A DNA stretch of 64,000 nt from Parcubacteria group bacterium GW2011_GWA2_51_10. Its GTDB lineage: Bacteria > Patescibacteriota > Minisyncoccia > Phycocordibacterales > UBA2100. A model generated the notes under the pieces. That model did no database searches and had not been told where the DNA came from. It saw only the letters and a program-made list of their open reading frames with translations. Positions 906 through 22,848 of this stretch are shown here, one piece after another. A program made the position numbers and the translations under genes. Where the stretch lies: positions 2,530 to 66,529 of the forward strand of contig LCQS01000017.1 in assembly GCA_001004265.1 (NCBI GenBank). The letters are read 5' to 3'. Within the stretch, counting starts at the first letter, position 1. Each line of letters starts with the position of its first letter.

Positions 906-941
906 AAGTAGCGGGGCAGCAAAAACCCCGCAATTGCGGGG
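906..941 (-). terminator. rho-independent terminator downstream of rplL
   Basis: Perfect 16-bp inverted repeat gcagcaaaaaccccgc-aatt-gcggggtttttgctgc. The A-run and T-run make it bidirectional. Confidence 0.7.
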
Positions 942-1022
942 TTTTTGCTGCCTTTGTCCCGAAATTCCACTTCGAGATTACTTTGCCACCAGCCGTCGGA
1001 TCTACTGTCTTGGTAACTTTGA

Positions 1023-1460
1023 TTACTTCAAAGTTACCTTACCGCCGGCTTCTTCGATTTTTTTCTTCCAATTCTCGGCGTCTTCTTTCTTCACGCCTTC
1101 CTTCATCATCGCTGGAGCGCTTTCGACGAGATCTTTTGCCTCCTTGAGGCCAAGCCCGAGAACTTCCTTCACGGCCTTGATCACGGCGATTTTCTGCTCG
1201 CCTGCCGATGTTAGCTCGACGTTGAATTCACTCTTCTCTTCTCCGGCGCCTGCTGCGGCCGCGGCTGCCGGAGCTGCGACTGCCTGCGCCGAAACGCCGA
1301 ATTTTTTCTCGAGAAACTTCACGAGCTCATTCAACTCCAAGACCGTCATTTTCTCGACCTGCTCGACGAGCGCCTTGAATTTCGACGGGGTTTCCAATGT
1401 TTCTGTCTCAGCTGCTACGGATTCTGCCGGAGCTGCCATGTTTTCGTCAACCATAGACAA
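1023..1460 (-). CDS. rplL: 50S ribosomal protein L7/L12
   Basis: 145 aa with an Ala-rich hinge and C-terminal KEAKDLVE...GVKKEDAE...IEEAGGKV, typical of L7/L12. Adjacent to rplJ. Confidence 0.93.
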
Positions 1461-3202: not shown

Positions 3203-3346
3203 TCCTTGCCGCGCACGCTAGGGCGCGGCGCCGTAAACCCACGGGATAATTCTATAGTTGTCGTGCGGCGGCGTTCCCGTACCAGTTTTGAAATACTCGT
3301 TGGATGCTGGGTGTTTGGTACGATGTTGGAACTTTACTGCGCTAGC

Positions 3347-3868
3347 CTAGCGTCGAAAGTCCGGGTACTTTTTTAGTTTAAATGGGATGGAAACGACGCC
3401 ATCTTTTCTTTCACGAACCGGTGATTCCTTTGCACTGTATTGAAGTACTGTAAATTGAACTTCTGACGTACTTTGTACTTTTATTTTTAGATTGACAACT
3501 TCTTTAGGATTTAACTTCTGAATTCTAAAAAGCCAAACTTTTTTACCAACCTGGTCTTTAGCCATTACTGCCACGTGGTTAGTATTCACATTCATATGCT
3601 CGACGGTTTTACCGATGGGGGTATCATCTGAGATCGTAGTGATATCAAACCCGTCAGCAGAGAGGCCCTCAACGTAGATATCGTAGAGTTCGCTGTTGAG
3701 TCTGTTGGTGATTTTTAAGTCGCGAATTTCTACCCACTCATCAGATGCATCTGACTTCATCCGTCTAGGATTAATCTTGACGGGCGAAATACCATTAAAC
3801 AGATAAACGCCCATTTTTAAGATTGCGTCAAATGTGAGATCAAATATTTTTTCGATAAAAAAGCCCAT
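3347..3868 (-). CDS. hypothetical protein (AT-rich island, 3' gene of a putative 3-gene operon)
   Basis: 173-aa ORF in a low-GC stretch. No recognisable motifs. Co-directional and closely spaced with the nuclease gene. Confidence 0.5.
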   Translation of the reverse strand: MGFFIEKIFDLTFDAILKMGVYLFNGISPVKINPRRMKSDASDEWVEIRDLKITNRLNSELYDIYVEGLSADGFDITTISDDTPIGKTVEHMNVNTNHVAVMAKDQVGKKVWLFRIQKLNPKEVVNLKIKVQSTSEVQFTVLQYSAKESPVRERKDGVVSIPFKLKKYPDFRR

Positions 3869-3920
3869 TGGTTTGTTTGCTTTTAAATGCTAGCAGGCAA
3901 AATATTTTCAGTGCATCTCG

Positions 3921-4571
3921 TTAATTTTGTTCTCTAACTAATTTTTTGTATTTACACCAGGCGCAGTTCGAGGTAGCAGTAGGAAGAACACCGGAAAGAA
4001 GCCCTGAAATTTCTTCAATTAGTCGAAAAAACTGCTGCATATCTTCTTTGACTTCAAAATATTGTGGTTGAGAAGTAAAGACCGCGCGCCCTTCCTTTAT
4101 TTCTACGGATTGTGGAGACAAGGTTACGATGCCCATGTGCTGAACTTTTCTTGGCTCACCTTCTTGCGGATTTTCGAAAGCAAACTTGTAAGCGTGCAGC
4201 TGTGAGCCATATCTTTGCAATATTTTCTCCTGAGTGCTGTCAATGATTTTGAAGTCGATCACCGTGTGTTCTCCACTCGGAGTTCTGCACAAAATATCAA
4301 ACCTTCCGCTGATATAACAATCACTGCTGGGGATGATTGTGGACTTTAACCAGCCTTCTTGTGATTCGACTATGACGTCCGGAAGGTCTGGATGAATATT
4401 CCGCATATTCATCCCAACAATGTGCGATTGAAGAAGAGAATTCATTCGCGCAAAGATACCCGGGAAAGGCATCGACGGCAGAGCCAGCCCCAGTTTAACT
4501 TTAGAGTAGTAGCAGTGTTTGCAGTCACCTAAGAGATAGCCAAAATCAGAGGGACTGAGTTTATAACTCAT
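3921..4571 (-). CDS. Cas4/RecB-family PD-(D/E)XK nuclease with a 4-Cys cluster
   Basis: 216 aa. N-terminal SPSDFGYLLGDCKHCYY resembles the Cas4 N-terminal motif. GRFDIL (motif II), VIDFK ((D/E)xK) and QLHAY (QxxxY). C-terminal CAWC completes a C...C...CxxC cluster. Confidence 0.65.
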   Translation of the reverse strand: MSYKLSPSDFGYLLGDCKHCYYSKVKLGLALPSMPFPGIFARMNSLLQSHIVGMNMRNIHPDLPDVIVESQEGWLKSTIIPSSDCYISGRFDILCRTPSGEHTVIDFKIIDSTQEKILQRYGSQLHAYKFAFENPQEGEPRKVQHMGIVTLSPQSVEIKEGRAVFTSQPQYFEVKEDMQQFFRLIEEISGLLSGVLPTATSNCAWCKYKKLVREQN

Positions 4572-4576
4572 TTTGC

Positions 4577-4744
4577 TTACGGCTCAAATCCTCCAGTTGC
4601 TTCTTTTTTCTCGCACTTGCTACACGTTCGCAACTGCTGATCTTTCCTGTCATTGGGCTCTCCGCAGGATAAACAGCGACCTTCTCTCCACGCCTCGTCT
4701 GCAAGATCTTGACCCTGGTTCGATAAATCATTCTCGTTGCTCAT
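4577..4744 (-). CDS. small zinc-ribbon protein (55 aa), missing from the ORF track
   Basis: Translated by hand: MSNENDLSNQGQDLADEAWREGRCLSCGEPNDRKDQQLRTCSKCEKKEATGGFEP. Carries CxxC...CxxC. Its stop lies 6 nt upstream of the nuclease ATG. Confidence 0.5.
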   Translation of the reverse strand: MSNENDLSNQGQDLADEAWREGRCLSCGEPNDRKDQQLRTCSKCEKKEATGGFEP

Positions 4745-5009
4745 ATAAAATAGTATTTAACCCTAATGGAACCACTGTATAACCTTTAAAATCGAAGTAA
4801 AGCTACCCGTTTTACGTTATATATTCTCGGCATATGCTGCGAGCACCAAAACACCGAGCACAAACCACCAGCGATAGTAGATCGGTCGATTATGTCCTAT
4901 TCCTATGTATCCTGGCCATCTGACTTATCCCCACCGTTGTGAGCACTAAATCCACATACTTATCCTCACCCCTTATCCACTTCACCACCGCTATTACGTT
5001 CCTCAAGAA

Positions 5010-6380
5010 CTACTTGGATTTGAGGAGGAAGGCGCCGAAGGCGCCGGAAACGAGGCTTTGGTTGTAGAGTTCGGGCGAAAATGGATCGGCAAATTTCCGC
5101 TCGGGTTCCTTGCGTGTTTCGTCGCACCAAACGCAGACAGCATCCCACGTTTTGGTCCACCAAGGTTCAGAGTAATCATCGCCAGGTGTAAAAACCTCTA
5201 CGCGCTGATCCCACGGAGTCGGCACGTACTCGCTGTCCTCGATTCTGTATTCCTGTGGCTGTTCAGTAAATGGCAGTTGCTGCTCGACCGATTCGCCCAC
5301 AGCGGGTCCGAATTCATCGTCGTTGTACGCACCGATTGGGACATCTTTATAAACATCGCCTTCGTACTCCTGCCGCGGGTTATAGAGAGGCTCTGGTGCA
5401 TTGAGAGATCCAGGAAAGAACTCATCGTCGCTGTACGCACCGATTGGGACATTTTTGTACGTATCTTCAGAATACTGCTGGTCCTGATTGTAGCGCGGTG
5501 CGACTTCCGCGCTGTCTTGGCTCCAGATATTGTTCCACAGACTGCTCCAGAATCCTTCAGCTGGCGGCTGTGGCATGGAGCCAAGGTCGTCTCCAGAAGA
5601 TGGGAACGGCGAGCTTGAGTCGTCGGTTCCCCACGAGACCGCTCTTTCCGTACCGACTGATGCGCGAGGCGGCTCGCTCCTCGAGGTAGTAAACCAGCTT
5701 GCCACGCGCTGAAAAAAACCACTCGAATCTTCATCCGGCAAGGGTTGGTATGCTTCGCCATCGGCCGGATATGGAGAATCCCAGCGCGGCTCGTCGCTGG
5801 TGACTCGCACATTCCAATTTGGAGTTCTTTCCTCAACCGGAGCTCGCCATTGTGTCTGAAGCGACCCCCACTCTCCCGGCTCGAGACCACCGGTTGCCCT
5901 TACTGTCTCAGCAATCTCACTGTTGCTTGGTCCCTCTACGCATTGGAGGTAGCGATAGTAATCATCTTCGCCAGGGTATCTATCCGCACAGGTAATATCA
6001 ATCGTACCGTATAATTGCCGCTCTACGCGCGGTGCTGCAGGTGCTTCTGCTGTTGAGATTCGATACTTTTCAGGATTATCGATGCAGTCCTTTAGTTCAT
6101 TCCAATCGCCGTTCCTTTGATATAGGTTATTGCACTCAGGATATGAAGGCGAGTTGTAATTAATTCCGGAAACTGATTTCGCAGACGTCTGTGCTCCGCC
6201 AGACGGAGCAGTGGGTACGCGCGCACCTACGCTCGGTGTTTTTTGTAGAGTGCTTGGAGCCGGAGTTGTCGCTATTCTCCGGCTGATACAGTTAGCAACT
6301 AGTGCATCTCCGAGAAGGCTTAGCCTGTTCAATAATTCCGCCGGCCCGCTTGCCAGTACTTGGCGATGCCGCAGACTCAA
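5010..6380 (-). CDS. low-complexity secreted-type protein with internal tandem repeats (possibly the 3' part of a frameshifted gene)
   Basis: 456 aa. Repeats YKNVPIGAYSDDEF / YKDVPIGAYNDDEF. No signal peptide of its own. Overlaps the 3' end of the upstream ORF by about 89 nt. Confidence 0.5.
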   Translation of the reverse strand: MSLRHRQVLASGPAELLNRLSLLGDALVANCISRRIATTPAPSTLQKTPSVGARVPTAPSGGAQTSAKSVSGINYNSPSYPECNNLYQRNGDWNELKDCIDNPEKYRISTAEAPAAPRVERQLYGTIDITCADRYPGEDDYYRYLQCVEGPSNSEIAETVRATGGLEPGEWGSLQTQWRAPVEERTPNWNVRVTSDEPRWDSPYPADGEAYQPLPDEDSSGFFQRVASWFTTSRSEPPRASVGTERAVSWGTDDSSSPFPSSGDDLGSMPQPPAEGFWSSLWNNIWSQDSAEVAPRYNQDQQYSEDTYKNVPIGAYSDDEFFPGSLNAPEPLYNPRQEYEGDVYKDVPIGAYNDDEFGPAVGESVEQQLPFTEQPQEYRIEDSEYVPTPWDQRVEVFTPGDDYSEPWWTKTWDAVCVWCDETRKEPERKFADPFSPELYNQSLVSGAFGAFLLKSK

Positions 6381-7323: not shown

Positions 7324-8190
7324 CTACGGATTCGAATTTACGTATGCTCTAGTCTTCGCCCCAAAGTAGCCGGCCACCGGAGTGATTCCTGCTGCTTTCT
7401 GCAATCTAATTACCGCTGCGCGCGTGAAAGCGCCAAATTTGGTCGTCTCGTTTCCAGGAGAGCCGGGGCCACTCGCGGCTATGAGGTAACCATGCGCATT
7501 GAGCCAGACTTGGAGCTGCTTCACATCAGAGCCGGTGGATCCGAGCTGCAAATTGCGCGCGAAGTTTGCGCCGACGGTCGTTTGACCTGTCATTGCCGCC
7601 AACTGTGCCATGAGCGCATTGATCTGCGCGGTGAGCTGCGCAATGAGCGCGGTGCGCTGCTCTGCTGTCAGAGTACCCGTAGCTGCCGGCAGCGTTGCGG
7701 TAGTGGTAGTTGTCACCACAGGCGTAGTTACGACCGCTGTGGTGCCACCGCCGCCTCCCCCGCCACCTCCTCCGCCTCCGCCTCCGCCTCCGCCGCCACT
7801 GCCTGTAGTTGCGGCGCATGAACCGGTGTCAGGTTCGATGGTAATCGTTCTTGAATTGGTAGTTCCCTGAAAGCTTACAGATGAACTGGAGTCCGCCGTG
7901 CACGTCGAGGCGCTTATCGCCTCGGACGGCGCATTGTGCGTGATCTTATATCCATTCCCCTGCTGGATCGTTATGGAGGATCCGGACAACAGCACGAATG
8001 AGAAGTTGCCCGCATTTACCGTTATCGATTCGATTGACGCGCTGCTTCCGGATACGGAGTACGTGATGCCTCCCGCCGTGATGTTCGTATCAGTCGTAAG
8101 CGTGACATCATCTGCAGCCGCGAACGCAAGGATTGGCGCAAGCAGCGCTAGGAGCGTGCCTGTGAGAATTTTTTTCAGATTCATGGCCAT
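7324..8190 (-). CDS. secreted protein with poly-Gly/Thr linker and C-terminal putative peptidoglycan-binding (PG_binding_1-like) domain
   Basis: 288 aa. Signal peptide MAMNLKKILTGTLLALLAPILAFAAA. An 18-residue Gly run and Thr-rich region. C-terminal GSTGSDVKQLQVWLNAHGY...FGAFTRAAVIRLQKAAGI matches the PG-binding fold consensus. Confidence 0.6.
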   Translation of the reverse strand: MAMNLKKILTGTLLALLAPILAFAAADDVTLTTDTNITAGGITYSVSGSSASIESITVNAGNFSFVLLSGSSITIQQGNGYKITHNAPSEAISASTCTADSSSSVSFQGTTNSRTITIEPDTGSCAATTGSGGGGGGGGGGGGGGGGGGTTAVVTTPVVTTTTTATLPAATGTLTAEQRTALIAQLTAQINALMAQLAAMTGQTTVGANFARNLQLGSTGSDVKQLQVWLNAHGYLIAASGPGSPGNETTKFGAFTRAAVIRLQKAAGITPVAGYFGAKTRAYVNSNP

Positions 8191-22347: not shown

Positions 22348-22797
22348 CTAGAATGGGATATCGTCCGGATTGATATCCTCTTTCGGATACTCGATCCCCC
22401 CTCCTTGAGCTTCTGCAGGTTCAGCCTCTCCGGGGCGGCGGCCGCCTGGGCCTCCGCTTGTCGAAGGGCCTCCTCCTTGCGGCCCGAACTGAACACGATC
22501 CGCAACGACTTCCGTGCGGTAATGTTTCTGCCCGTCTTTTTCCCAATTGCGCGTCTGGAGGCGGCCCTCAACCAATACCGATCTCCCTTTTTTCATATAC
22601 TGCGCGACAGTATCCGCCTGACGTCCAAAAACAACAATATTGTGGAATTCCGTCTGTTCCTGCTTTTTGCCGTCGCGATCTCGGAACACCCGATTCGTCG
22701 CAATCGAAAAGTTCACGACATTCATGCCGGACGGAAGCGCCTTTAATTCCGGGTCACGCGTGAGATTGCCGAAGAGAATGACTTTGTTGATGTACAT
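22348..22797 (-). CDS. ssb: single-stranded DNA-binding protein
   Basis: 149 aa. OB-fold, Gly-rich tail and acidic C-terminus DDIPF. Confidence 0.92.
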   Translation of the reverse strand: MYINKVILFGNLTRDPELKALPSGMNVVNFSIATNRVFRDRDGKKQEQTEFHNIVVFGRQADTVAQYMKKGRSVLVEGRLQTRNWEKDGQKHYRTEVVADRVQFGPQGGGPSTSGGPGGRRPGEAEPAEAQGGGIEYPKEDINPDDIPF

Positions 22798-22799
22798 AA

Positions 22800-22848
22800 C
22801 AGATAGCTTGTAGCTCTCAGCTTATAGTTTGTAGTTGAAAAGGCAAAG
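22800..22848. repeat. heptamer tandem repeat (AGCTTGT/AGTTTGT-like) in the rpsF-ssb spacer
   Basis: agcttgt agctctc agcttat agtttgt agttgaa. Confidence 0.6.

What the first reader, a model, noticed from the sequence alone, without database searches (positions are those of the whole stretch)
3921..4744. Zinc-ribbon mini-protein translationally linked to a Cas4-like Fe-S nuclease
A hand-translated 55-aa ORF (4577..4744, CxxC-x16-CxxC) is absent from the ORF track. It stops 6 nt before the ATG of the 216-aa nuclease. The nuclease has the Cas4 N-terminal motif SPSDFGYLLGDCKHCYY, the PD-(D/E)XK triad (GRFDIL / VIDFK / QLHAY) and a 4-Cys cluster. Pairing a Zn-ribbon with a RecB-family nuclease is reminiscent of anti-phage or abortive-infection cassettes and phage exonucleases. 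The third gene (3347..3868) has no detectable homology.
Basis: partly seen in the sequence, partly recalled or inferred. Interest (0 to 1): 0.55.

Follow-up and report, generated by a model that had tools for sequence, protein, structure and literature searches.

The report
Unannotated zinc-ribbon partner of solo-Cas4-like nuclease
An unannotated 55-residue zinc-ribbon gene sits 5 bases upstream of a stand-alone Cas4-like DNA nuclease in a Parcubacteria chromosome, and its rare relatives elsewhere almost always lie next to Cas4-like nucleases too, which points to a small accessory protein for enzymes whose cellular role is still unknown.

Summary
The 55-aa ORF (4577-4744, minus) is CxxC-x13-CxxC, not x16. 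It ends 5 nt, not 6, before the ATG of the 216-aa nuclease (3921-4571, minus).

**Mini-ORF.** It is a real gene. It is absent from public protein sets for this contig, but it has small homologues (47-64% identity, best E 2.6e-13). Substitutions in this frame are mostly synonymous.

**Nuclease.**
- It belongs to a large Patescibacteria family of stand-alone PD-(D/E)XK nucleases.
- The AF2 model has pLDDT 92.6. Its best fold matches are AdnA, Cas4 SSO0001, MGME1 and Exo5.
- Four cysteines are invariant, arranged 2+2 rather than Cas4's 1+3.

**New point.** In 9 of 10 independent loci the mini-protein's immediate same-strand neighbour is a Cas4-like nuclease, of at least three unrelated architectures. 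In the tenth it is ExoVII XseA.

**Limits.**
- 80 other genomes with the 216-aa family lack the mini-protein and share no conserved neighbour.
- The third gene (3347-3868) is an unrelated beta-sandwich protein.
- Nothing in this window indicates a defence or abortive-infection cassette.

**Verdict.** This is most likely an accessory zinc-ribbon subunit or regulator of DNA-end-processing nucleases. Interest is moderate.

The parts
4577..4744 (-). Unannotated 55-aa zinc-ribbon mini-protein. It has an acidic N-terminal segment (GQDLADEAW) followed by C24LSC27-x13-C41SKC44.
   Evidence: ORF. Homologues at 47-64% identity, E 2.6e-13 to 9e-06. Family alignment with invariant D13 G22 C24 L25 C27 N31 D32 K34 R39 C41 C44. 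Purifying-selection pattern in this frame. No Pfam or PDB family. Absent from public protein sets.
4572..4576 (-). 5-nt spacer (GCAAA) between the mini-protein stop and the nuclease ATG. The only GGAGG lies about 17 nt upstream of the ATG, inside the mini-ORF. This is compatible with termination-reinitiation coupling, which is inferred and not shown.
   Evidence: Read directly from the sequence. No terminator-like site between the genes.
3921..4571 (-). 216-aa stand-alone Cas4-like PD-(D/E)XK (RecB-family) nuclease. Catalytic residues are D92, D106-x-K108 and Q124...Y128. The 4-Cys site is C17/C20 plus C203/C206. It lacks the SSB-like C-terminal tail present in most of its family.
   Evidence: 373 homologues in the word-indexed search, the top 120 at 50-70% identity. 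Invariant residues. AF2 pLDDT 92.6. Foldseek PDB top hits AdnA, SSO0001 Cas4, MGME1, Exo5, RecE and ACE1. PF12705 matches 47 of 60 family members but not this copy. PADLOC Cas4 HMM E 7.9e-06.
4745..5009 (-). 265-nt upstream intergenic region, 42% GC, with one sigma-70-like match (TGGCCA-18-CATAAT, 4918 to 4889). It is the presumed promoter region of the mini-protein/nuclease transcript (inferred).
   Evidence: the number of promoter-like matches is not above the shuffled expectation. GC.
3347..3868 (-). Downstream 173-aa gene encoding an N-terminal hydrophobic helix plus a beta-sandwich. It lies on the same strand, 52 nt after the nuclease, and shares the low-GC stretch. It is not a conserved partner and is probably a membrane-anchored or surface protein.
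   Evidence: Single homologue at 51% identity, in a context with no nuclease. AF2 pLDDT 58, helix 4-23 plus 8 strands. Only generic Ig/CBM/cohesin-like matches. No family hits.

Best explanation
A two-gene module lies on the chromosome of a Parcubacteria (Patescibacteria/CPR) bacterium.

The second gene encodes a solo Cas4-like, metal-dependent PD-(D/E)XK nuclease. Its N- and C-terminal helices are stapled by a 4-Cys metal site, either Fe-S or Zn. By analogy with Cas4, AddB/AdnA, Exo5 and MGME1 it should process single-stranded DNA or DNA ends.

The first gene encodes a 55-residue zinc-ribbon protein that is co-transcribed and probably translationally coupled. I propose it is an accessory subunit. 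Its conserved acidic-aromatic N-terminal segment (G-x-D-x-A-D-E-x-W) would dock onto the nuclease. Its basic zinc ribbon (K34, R39, K43, K46, K47) would contact nucleic acid or another factor. In this way it would target or regulate the nuclease.

Shown:
- Both genes are real and conserved.
- The nuclease has the predicted fold and catalytic residues.
- The gene adjacency recurs across unrelated Cas4-like architectures.

Inferred:
- Physical interaction between the two proteins.
- Substrate and metal identity.
- Co-translation.
- Whether the cellular role is repair/recombination or degradation of foreign DNA.

The stretch has the lowest GC of the whole window, so the module was probably acquired laterally.
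For: - **Mini-ORF is a conserved coding gene**.
- **Nuclease fold and catalytic residues**.
- **Recurrent adjacency, always same strand and close**:
  - window: mini then nuclease, 5-nt gap;
  - L100: small nuclease of the same family (A1 profile E 2.6e-17), then mini, 23-nt gap;
  - L092 group: 226-aa relative (profile E 1.1e-13; PF12705 E 2e-08), then mini, 60-nt gap;
  - L098: 407-aa PDDEXK_1/Cas4 (E 4e-36), then mini, 17-nt gap;
  - L096, L101, L102/L105, L104: DUF2779 nucleases (E 1e-34 to 3e-40), then mini, 25-91-nt gaps;
  - L103: Cas4 plus RNase_H_2 fusion, then mini, 34-nt gap;
  - L091: mini overlaps xseA by 11 nt.
- **Gene order is inverted between the window and the other loci while adjacency is kept.** This argues for selection on linkage.
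- **DUF2779 proteins are described as Cas4 plus DEDD exonuclease fusions** (PMC13621843, PMC3985635). So every partner is a ssDNA or DNA-end exonuclease.
- **The window stretch 3251-4750 has the lowest GC of the 64 kb**: 42.4% against 51.8 +/- 2.7%.
Against: - None of 80 species-representative genomes carrying the 216-aa family has a mini-protein homologue within 4 kb. They share no conserved neighbour either: at most 6 of 80. The nuclease therefore does not need the mini-protein.
- Only about 10 independent mini-protein loci are known, all from metagenomes and none with taxonomy.
- No gene fusion between the mini-protein and a nuclease was found.
- No complex prediction, expression data or biochemistry is available.
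- The promoter-like site and the coupling are consensus-level inferences.
- The closest nuclease homologue (70% identity) shows no mini-protein in the about 60 nt upstream and 370 nt downstream that are available.
Confidence: 0.5

Rival explanations
1. Anti-phage defence or abortive-infection cassette. The nuclease would degrade invading or host DNA, and the zinc-ribbon protein would act as its sensor or regulator.
For: - In other loci the mini-protein closes operons of a large AAA_11/AAA_12 helicase, sometimes a WYL protein, and a DUF2779 nuclease.
- The L104 helicase matches the PADLOC candidate PDC-S37 at E 1.3e-256. The L101 126-aa protein matches WYL models.
- The window module sits in a low-GC, probably acquired stretch.
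- Cas4-family enzymes can serve defence with a partner, for example ACE1 with Argonautes (PMC12094033). ACE1 is among the fold matches.
Against: - No PADLOC system protein other than weak Cas4 models hits the window genes.
- There is no helicase, WYL or other defence gene nearby.
- The 216-aa family is a solo gene in housekeeping contexts (Obg, KsgA, UvrA, PolX) in other genomes.
- Most members carry an SSB-type C-terminal tail, typical of genome-maintenance proteins.
- PDC-S37 is an untested candidate with no literature.
- No phage or plasmid relatives.
Confidence: 0.15
2. Toxin-antitoxin-like pair. The small acidic zinc-ribbon protein would be an inhibitor (antitoxin) of a toxic nuclease encoded just downstream.
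For: Small upstream gene with a 5-nt gap to the nuclease. The mini-protein is net acidic with a strongly acidic N-terminus, read from the sequence. The pair lies in an apparently acquired low-GC stretch.
Against: - In 8 of the other 9 loci the order is nuclease first, mini-protein second. Partners there are 400-535-aa multidomain enzymes inside helicase operons.
- More than 80 genomes keep the nuclease with no mini-protein, so it is not inherently toxic.
- No significant match to toxin-antitoxin models (the one NCBIfam antitoxin hit, MntA at E 0.098, is far below its cut-off).
Confidence: 0.1
3. The mini-protein is an independent small DNA-binding regulator or unrelated micro-protein. Its adjacency to the nuclease in this window would then carry no functional meaning, being chance or generic clustering of DNA-metabolism genes.
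For: The 216-aa family normally lacks it. L091 pairs it with xseA rather than a PD-(D/E)XK enzyme. A zinc ribbon with basic residues could bind DNA as a repressor (inference).
Against: Nine of 10 independent loci have a Cas4-like gene as the immediate same-strand neighbour. This holds across at least three architectures that the A1 profile does not connect. Such genes are a handful per genome, so chance adjacency is very unlikely (inference).
Confidence: 0.2
4. The 55-aa ORF is a chance open frame and is not expressed.
For: No gene caller annotated it in three public copies of the contig. There is no clear Shine-Dalgarno sequence upstream.
Against: Homologues with E down to 2.6e-13 in 1.84 billion proteins. 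Aligned start codon and invariant Cys, Asn, Asp, Lys and Arg residues. Excess of third-position changes.
Confidence: 0.03

Closest known systems
Solo-Cas4 / Cas4 family nucleases (e.g. Sulfolobus SSO0001, PDB 4IC1; Methanosarcina mazei Solo-Cas4)
   Same: - RecB-type PD-(D/E)XK core.
- N-terminal S-x-S...C helix.
- A four-Cys site joining the N- and C-termini.
- About 200 aa in size.
- Stand-alone gene away from CRISPR.
- Solo-Cas4 is already reported as common in CPR genomes (PMC5704561).
- Fold match with probability 1.0 and TM 0.49-0.57.
   Different: - The Pfam Cas_Cas4 model does not hit any of 60 family members.
- The profile against 4IC1 gives only E 0.82.
- The Cys ligands are 2+2 (CxxC...CxxC) rather than C...CxxCx5C.
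- Most family members carry an SSB-type [DE][DE]IPF tail.
DUF2779 (PF11074) proteins, e.g. MMSYN1_0389 of JCVI-syn3.0
   Same: They have a Cas4-like N-terminal nuclease domain. They are the commonest neighbours of the mini-protein family. Their function is also unknown (PMC13621843).
   Different: They are about 500 aa with an added DEDD/RNase H-like 3'-5' exonuclease domain. The A1 profile does not recognise them. They are often preceded by a large SF1 helicase.
[quoted passage not shown]
   Same: A Cas4-family nuclease that works with a partner encoded next to it. It is among the fold matches and gives the best profile-sequence match.
   Different: Its partner is a long-A Argonaute, not a micro-protein. 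There is no Argonaute here. ACE1 is larger, at about 270 aa.
Nuclease domains of AdnA/AddB, Exo5 and MGME1
   Same: Best or near-best structural matches. AddB and Exo5 also carry a four-Cys Fe-S staple (my own knowledge, not tested here).
   Different: AdnA and AddB are domains of helicase-nuclease machines, and Exo5 and MGME1 are eukaryotic mitochondrial enzymes. The window protein is a minimal stand-alone domain.
Generic C4 zinc ribbons (eL40, L37ae, DZR_2, A2L-type)
   Same: Two CxxC knuckles about 13 residues apart. Only sub-threshold similarity.
   Different: No significant match to any curated family. The mini-protein has a family-specific acidic N-terminal segment and a C-L-x-C-G-E-P-N-D...R-x-C-S-K-C signature.

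Membership tests
Cas4 (PF01930/DUF83) | RecB-type PD-(D/E)XK catalytic motifs (D, D/E-x-K, Q-x3-Y) | tested here: met
   D92, D106, K108, Q124 and Y128 are invariant in 60 homologues.
Cas4 (PF01930/DUF83) | Cas4/RecB nuclease fold | tested here: met
   AF2 pLDDT 92.6. Foldseek match to 4IC1 chains with E 3e-06 to 7e-05 and TM 0.49-0.57.
Cas4 (PF01930/DUF83) | Significant match to the family's sequence model | tested here: not met
   No PF01930 hit for the window protein at E<=1, nor for any of 60 members at E<=0.01. PADLOC Cas4 HMMs reach only E 7.9e-06 to 0.016. Profile against the 4IC1 sequence gives E 0.82.
Cas4 (PF01930/DUF83) | Four Cys arranged C...C-x2-C-x5-C (one N-terminal, three C-terminal) | tested here: not met
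   The invariant Cys are C17-x2-C20 and C203-x2-C206. The third C-terminal Cys is absent in the window copy and present only in a subset of members (CKYRLCF).
Cas4 (PF01930/DUF83) | Binds an Fe-S cluster; 5'-3' ssDNA exonuclease activity | not testable with these tools
   Needs purified protein, with UV-vis/EPR or metal analysis and nuclease assays.
Cas4 (PF01930/DUF83) | Encoded in a CRISPR-cas adaptation module (CAS-Cas4) | tested here: not met
   No cas genes in the window neighbourhood or in homologue loci. It would be 'solo' at best.
PDDEXK_1 (PF12705) | Match to the Pfam model above threshold | tested here: inconclusive
   47 of 60 family members match (best E 1e-10), but the window copy itself gives no hit. 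The database's precomputed annotation lists PF12705 for the identical protein P0001.
Known anti-phage defence systems (PADLOC-DB 2.0) | System-specific protein models and a co-located partner set | tested here: not met
   Only weak Cas4, PDC-S26, LmuA and DruK nuclease-domain hits for the nuclease. Nothing significant for the other two genes. No defence neighbours.
Type II toxin-antitoxin pair | Conserved antitoxin-toxin gene pair with fixed order, and a toxin not found without its antitoxin | tested here: not met
   Gene order is reversed in most loci. The nuclease family occurs without the mini-protein in 80 genomes.
C4 zinc ribbon (mini-protein) | Two CxxC knuckles separated by a short beta-hairpin-length spacer, invariant across homologues | tested here: met
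   C24, C27, C41 and C44 are invariant in 11 sequences. The fold itself was not modelled, and metal binding is not testable here.

The most novel reading that the evidence does not exclude
The mini-protein is a dedicated small subunit. It physically docks onto otherwise unrelated ssDNA or DNA-end exonucleases of Patescibacteria: small CxxC...CxxC Cas4-like enzymes, 407-aa PDDEXK_1/Cas4, DUF2779 Cas4-DEDD fusions and ExoVII. It would be a previously unrecognised 'nuclease adaptor' micro-protein. It may replace the SSB-type C-terminal tail that most members of the 216-aa family use for recruitment, a tail that the mini-protein-linked copies (window, L100, L092) lack.
Probability: 0.2. Interest if true: 0.65.

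Novelty: new variant of a known kind. Interest (0 to 1): 0.45.

Why it matters
[quoted passage not shown] One DUF2779 gene is described there as quasi-essential in the minimal cell JCVI-syn3.0.

A conserved micro-protein that tracks several unrelated Cas4-like architectures gives a concrete experimental handle through co-purification, structures and activity modulation. It is also an example of functional small proteins missed by gene callers in CPR genomes.

The SSB-type tail on most members of the 216-aa family independently suggests these enzymes plug into the SSB interaction network, which is directly testable.

Tried and rejected
- **Word-indexed homologue search for the mini-protein:** nothing, not even itself. 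The exhaustive representative search was needed.
- **Viral contigs, INPHARED phages and PLSDB plasmids:** no relatives of the mini-protein or the nuclease.
- **First metagenome scan with the 6-sequence alignment:** A 3-sequence alignment worked.
- **Sequence-only PDB searches** gave nothing significant for the nuclease or the mini-protein.
- **tRNA, Rfam and repeat scans** around the low-GC stretch found no att-like repeats, tRNA or RNA element that would define a mobile island.
- **Fusion (Rosetta-stone) search** for the zinc-ribbon signature in nuclease homologues and in all six-frame ORFs found none.
- **P0126** (1179 aa) is a low-complexity repeat artefact.
- **P0129-P0132** are multi-repeat proteins. 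P0130-P0132 carry a similar CxxCGxPND...CxxC unit but have no nuclease link.
- **Third-gene structure:** low confidence (pLDDT 58) with only generic beta-sandwich matches. I rejected it as part of the module.
- **Alternative overlapping 56-aa ORF** (4561-4731, minus): rejected, because the family profile matches only the 4577-4744 frame.
- **Cluster look-up** gave no organism names for the mini-protein loci.
Full report
**Origin and setting.** The nuclease is 100% identical to hypothetical protein UY63_C0017G0011 of Parcubacteria group bacterium GW2011_GWA2_51_10. The window is therefore a chromosomal contig of a CPR/Patescibacteria bacterium. Around the finding lie:
- an HTH protein, ribosomal proteins L7/L12 and L10, and a CARDB surface protein;
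- several unassigned 228-456-aa proteins and a peptidoglycan-binding protein;
- farther away, FtsK, RecA and SSB.

No cas, restriction, helicase or other defence genes are nearby.

**Check of the observation.** The three minus-strand ORFs are exactly where stated.
- The mini-ORF (4744 to 4577) encodes MSNENDLSNQGQDLADEAWREGRCLSCGEPNDRKDQQLRTCSKCEKKEATGGFEP.
- Its knuckles are C24-x2-C27 and C41-x2-C44, separated by 13 residues, not 16.
- Its TAA is followed by 5 nt (GCAAA), not 6, before the nuclease ATG.
- The two genes are in different frames.
- The only GGAGG lies about 17 nt before the nuclease ATG. Initiation by termination-reinitiation is therefore plausible but only inferred.

**Is the mini-ORF real?** Length alone is not evidence: there are 94 ORFs of at least 30 aa in 9 kb. 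No public gene call exists for it.

An exhaustive phmmer search of 1.84 billion representatives found five small proteins of 53-61 aa. They are 47-64% identical, with E 2.6e-13 to 9e-06. A metagenome scan added eight loci, of which five contributed new sequences to the alignment.

The 11-sequence alignment shares the start position and has invariant D13, G22, C24, L25, C27, N31, D32, K34, R39, C41 and C44.

Codon-level comparison shows 25-35 third-position differences against 6-11 second-position differences over 48 codons. dN is 0.22-0.32 and dS is saturated. This is a protein-coding gene under purifying selection.

It matches no Pfam family and no PDB sequence beyond sub-threshold generic zinc ribbons.

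**The nuclease.**
- The word-indexed search returned 373 homologues. The top 120 are 50-70% identical and are mostly labelled Woesebacteria, Levybacteria, Daviesbacteria or Berkelbacteria.
- A pattern scan of GTDB species representatives found 141 genomes, almost all Patescibacteria.
- Invariant residues include S6-P-S-D-F10, C17, C20, E72, G89-R-F-D92, D106-F-K108, Q124, Y128, C203 and C206.
- The AF2 model is confident, with pLDDT 92.6 and pTM 0.88.
- Foldseek against the PDB returns the AdnA nuclease domain, Cas4 SSO0001 (4IC1, TM 0.49-0.57), MGME1, Exo5, RecE and ACE1. The PD-(D/E)XK / RecB-Cas4 fold is confirmed.

Family membership is less clean.
- PF12705 hits 47 of 60 members but not the window copy.
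- PF01930 (Cas4) hits none.
- PADLOC Cas4 models reach only E 8e-06.
- The Cys ligands are 2+2 rather than Cas4's 1+3.

I therefore call it Cas4-like, a divergent solo member of the Cas4/PDDEXK_1 clan, and not a Cas4 orthologue. Hudaiberdiev et al. already noted that solo-Cas4 genes are common in CPR (PMC5704561).

**Is the pairing meaningful?** Two opposite facts emerge.

(a) Within the 216-aa family the pairing is exceptional.
- In 80 species-representative loci no mini-protein homologue lies within 4 kb, by tblastn, profile search or motif search.
- No neighbour family recurs in more than 6 of 80 loci.
- Individual contexts are housekeeping: Obg, KsgA, UvrA, PolX.
- The closest homologue (70% identity) has different neighbours.

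(b) Seen from the mini-protein, the pairing is the rule. In the loci where it precedes its partner, the gap is to the following gene.

| Locus | Immediate same-strand neighbour | Order | Gap |
|---|---|---|---|
| window | 216-aa nuclease | mini first | 5 nt |
| L100 | C-terminal fragment of a nuclease matching the family profile, E 2.6e-17 | nuclease first | 23 nt |
| L092-95/L107/L108 | 226-aa relative (profile E 1.1e-13; PF12705) | nuclease first | 60 nt |
| L098/99 | 407-aa PDDEXK_1/Cas4 protein behind a 1530-aa AAA_11/12 helicase | nuclease first | 17 nt |
| L096/97, L101, L102/105/106, L104 | about 500-aa DUF2779 proteins | nuclease first | 25-91 nt |
| L103 | Cas4 plus RNase_H_2 fusion | nuclease first | 34 nt |
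| L091 | xseA, with a GIY-YIG gene upstream and xseB downstream | mini first | 11-nt overlap |

In the L092 group, xseB and xseA lie convergent just beyond the mini-protein. The DUF2779 genes usually sit behind a helicase and sometimes a WYL protein.

So 9 of 10 independent lineages have a Cas4-like nuclease as the immediate same-strand neighbour. These neighbours span at least three architectures that the 216-aa family profile does not connect. The tenth lineage has another ssDNA exonuclease.

DUF2779 proteins have been analysed as Cas4 plus DEDD exonuclease fusions of unknown role (PMC13621843, PMC3985635).

A genome has only a few such genes, so chance adjacency is very unlikely (inference). 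Gene order differs between the window and the other loci while adjacency is kept, which argues for selection on linkage.

**Mechanism, with the steps marked.**

Shown:
- Two real genes on one strand, 5 nt apart.
- A catalytically intact RecB/Cas4-type fold.
- An invariant 4-Cys site.
- Recurrent linkage of the mini-protein to ssDNA or DNA-end exonucleases.

Inferred:
- The pair is co-transcribed from the 265-nt upstream region and translationally coupled.
- The mini-protein binds the nuclease through its conserved acidic-aromatic N-terminal segment.
- The mini-protein contacts nucleic acid or another factor through its basic zinc ribbon, and so targets or regulates end processing.

Whether the cellular role is repair/recombination or degradation of foreign DNA is open.
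- In favour of genome maintenance are the ExoVII link, the housekeeping contexts and the SSB-type tail.
- In favour of defence are the helicase-(WYL)-DUF2779 operons, including one helicase that matches the untested PADLOC candidate PDC-S37 at E 1.3e-256.
- A toxin-antitoxin reading fits poorly, because gene order is reversed elsewhere and the nuclease is usually alone.

**Third gene.** ORF 3347-3868 has one homologue at 51% identity. That homologue sits next to a membrane protein and an unrelated 400-aa gene, with no nuclease.
- Its model is weak (pLDDT 58). It shows an N-terminal hydrophobic helix followed by eight strands.
- Matches are only generic Ig/CBM/cohesin-like folds.
- It is probably a membrane-anchored surface protein and not part of the module.
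- It does share the low-GC stretch.

**Composition.**

| Region | GC (%) |
|---|---|
| Third gene | 39.3 |
| Nuclease | 43.0 |
| Upstream intergenic region | 42.3 |
| Mini-gene | 48.8 |
| Whole window | 51.9 |

Among 1.5-kb segments (mean 51.8%, SD 2.7%), 3251-4750 is the lowest of the 64 kb. This suggests lateral acquisition, but no tRNA, repeats or integrase mark the borders.

**Side observation.** 71 of the 120 listed family members end in [DE][DE][ILM]PF. This is the SSB C-terminal motif (DDDIPF; PMC5872125). This organism's own SSB (22351-22821, minus; Pfam SSB E 1.9e-40) ends in DDIPF. The window copy, its closest homologue P0002, and the mini-protein-linked nucleases of L100 and L092 all lack this tail. 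It is an open and testable idea that the mini-protein offers an alternative means of recruitment.

**Verdict.**
- The nuclease is a new member of a known kind: a solo Cas4-like nuclease of CPR.
- The new element is the unannotated, conserved zinc-ribbon micro-protein family that tracks Cas4-like nucleases.
- The evidence for a functional link is comparative only and rests on about ten metagenomic lineages. Interest is moderate.

Noticed in passing
Homologues P0004-P0120; window 22351-22821 (-): 71 of 120 members of the 216-aa nuclease family end in [DE][DE][ILM]PF, the SSB C-terminal interaction motif. The window's own SSB (Pfam SSB E 1.9e-40) ends in DDIPF. The window nuclease, P0002 and the mini-protein-linked nucleases of L100 and L092 lack the tail. 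This suggests the family plugs into the SSB interaction network or mimics SSB-Ct.
   Followed up: partly
window 3251-4750: This is the lowest-GC 1.5-kb segment of the whole 64-kb window: 42.4% against 51.8 +/- 2.7%. It covers the third gene, the nuclease and the mini-protein. No tRNA, integrase or flanking repeats were found. It is possibly a laterally acquired stretch.
   Followed up: partly
L096 1-5177; L098 1-5162; L101 3-4180; L104 1-4180; L105 3-4180: A recurrent operon consists of a large AAA_11/AAA_12 SF1 helicase (over 1500 aa), an optional WYL protein, a DUF2779 or PDDEXK_1/Cas4 nuclease, and the zinc-ribbon mini-protein. The L104 helicase matches the PADLOC candidate PDC-S37 at E 1.3e-256. 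It could be an undescribed helicase-nuclease repair machine or a defence system.
   Followed up: partly
L091 230-2151; L092 2289-4727: The mini-protein is also linked to exonuclease VII genes. It overlaps xseA by 11 nt in L091, with a GIY-YIG gene upstream. In L092 it lies between a PDDEXK_1 gene and convergent xseB/xseA.
   Followed up: no
P0130, P0131, P0132: These larger proteins (126-328 aa) are made of 3-5 tandem copies of a similar G-L-C-x-x-C-G-x-P-N-D...C-x-x-C zinc-ribbon unit separated by basic helices. Their function and context are unknown.
   Followed up: no
L008 3-515: Upstream of the 59%-identical nuclease homologue P0003 lies another ORF with a PD-(D/E)XK-like signature (GHIDFL...ILDYKPD...QLTIYALAL). 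This may be a tandem pair of nucleases.
   Followed up: no
window 922-1040 (-): A sub-threshold Rfam match to RsmY (38 bits against a gathering score of 57, E 2e-06) lies just downstream of rplL, partly overlapping its 3' end (1023-1460). It is probably only a structured terminator region.
   Followed up: no
window 5310-5498 (within ORF 5010-6380, -): An 81-nt direct repeat at 73% identity and 108-nt spacing encodes an internal protein repeat (…Y.DVPIGAY.DDEF…). The host is a 456-aa acidic, Pro- and Ser-rich protein with no family match.
   Followed up: no
window 7324-8190 (-): A protein with a peptidoglycan-binding domain contains a run of about 20 consecutive glycines. The local GC peak is 0.63.
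   Followed up: no
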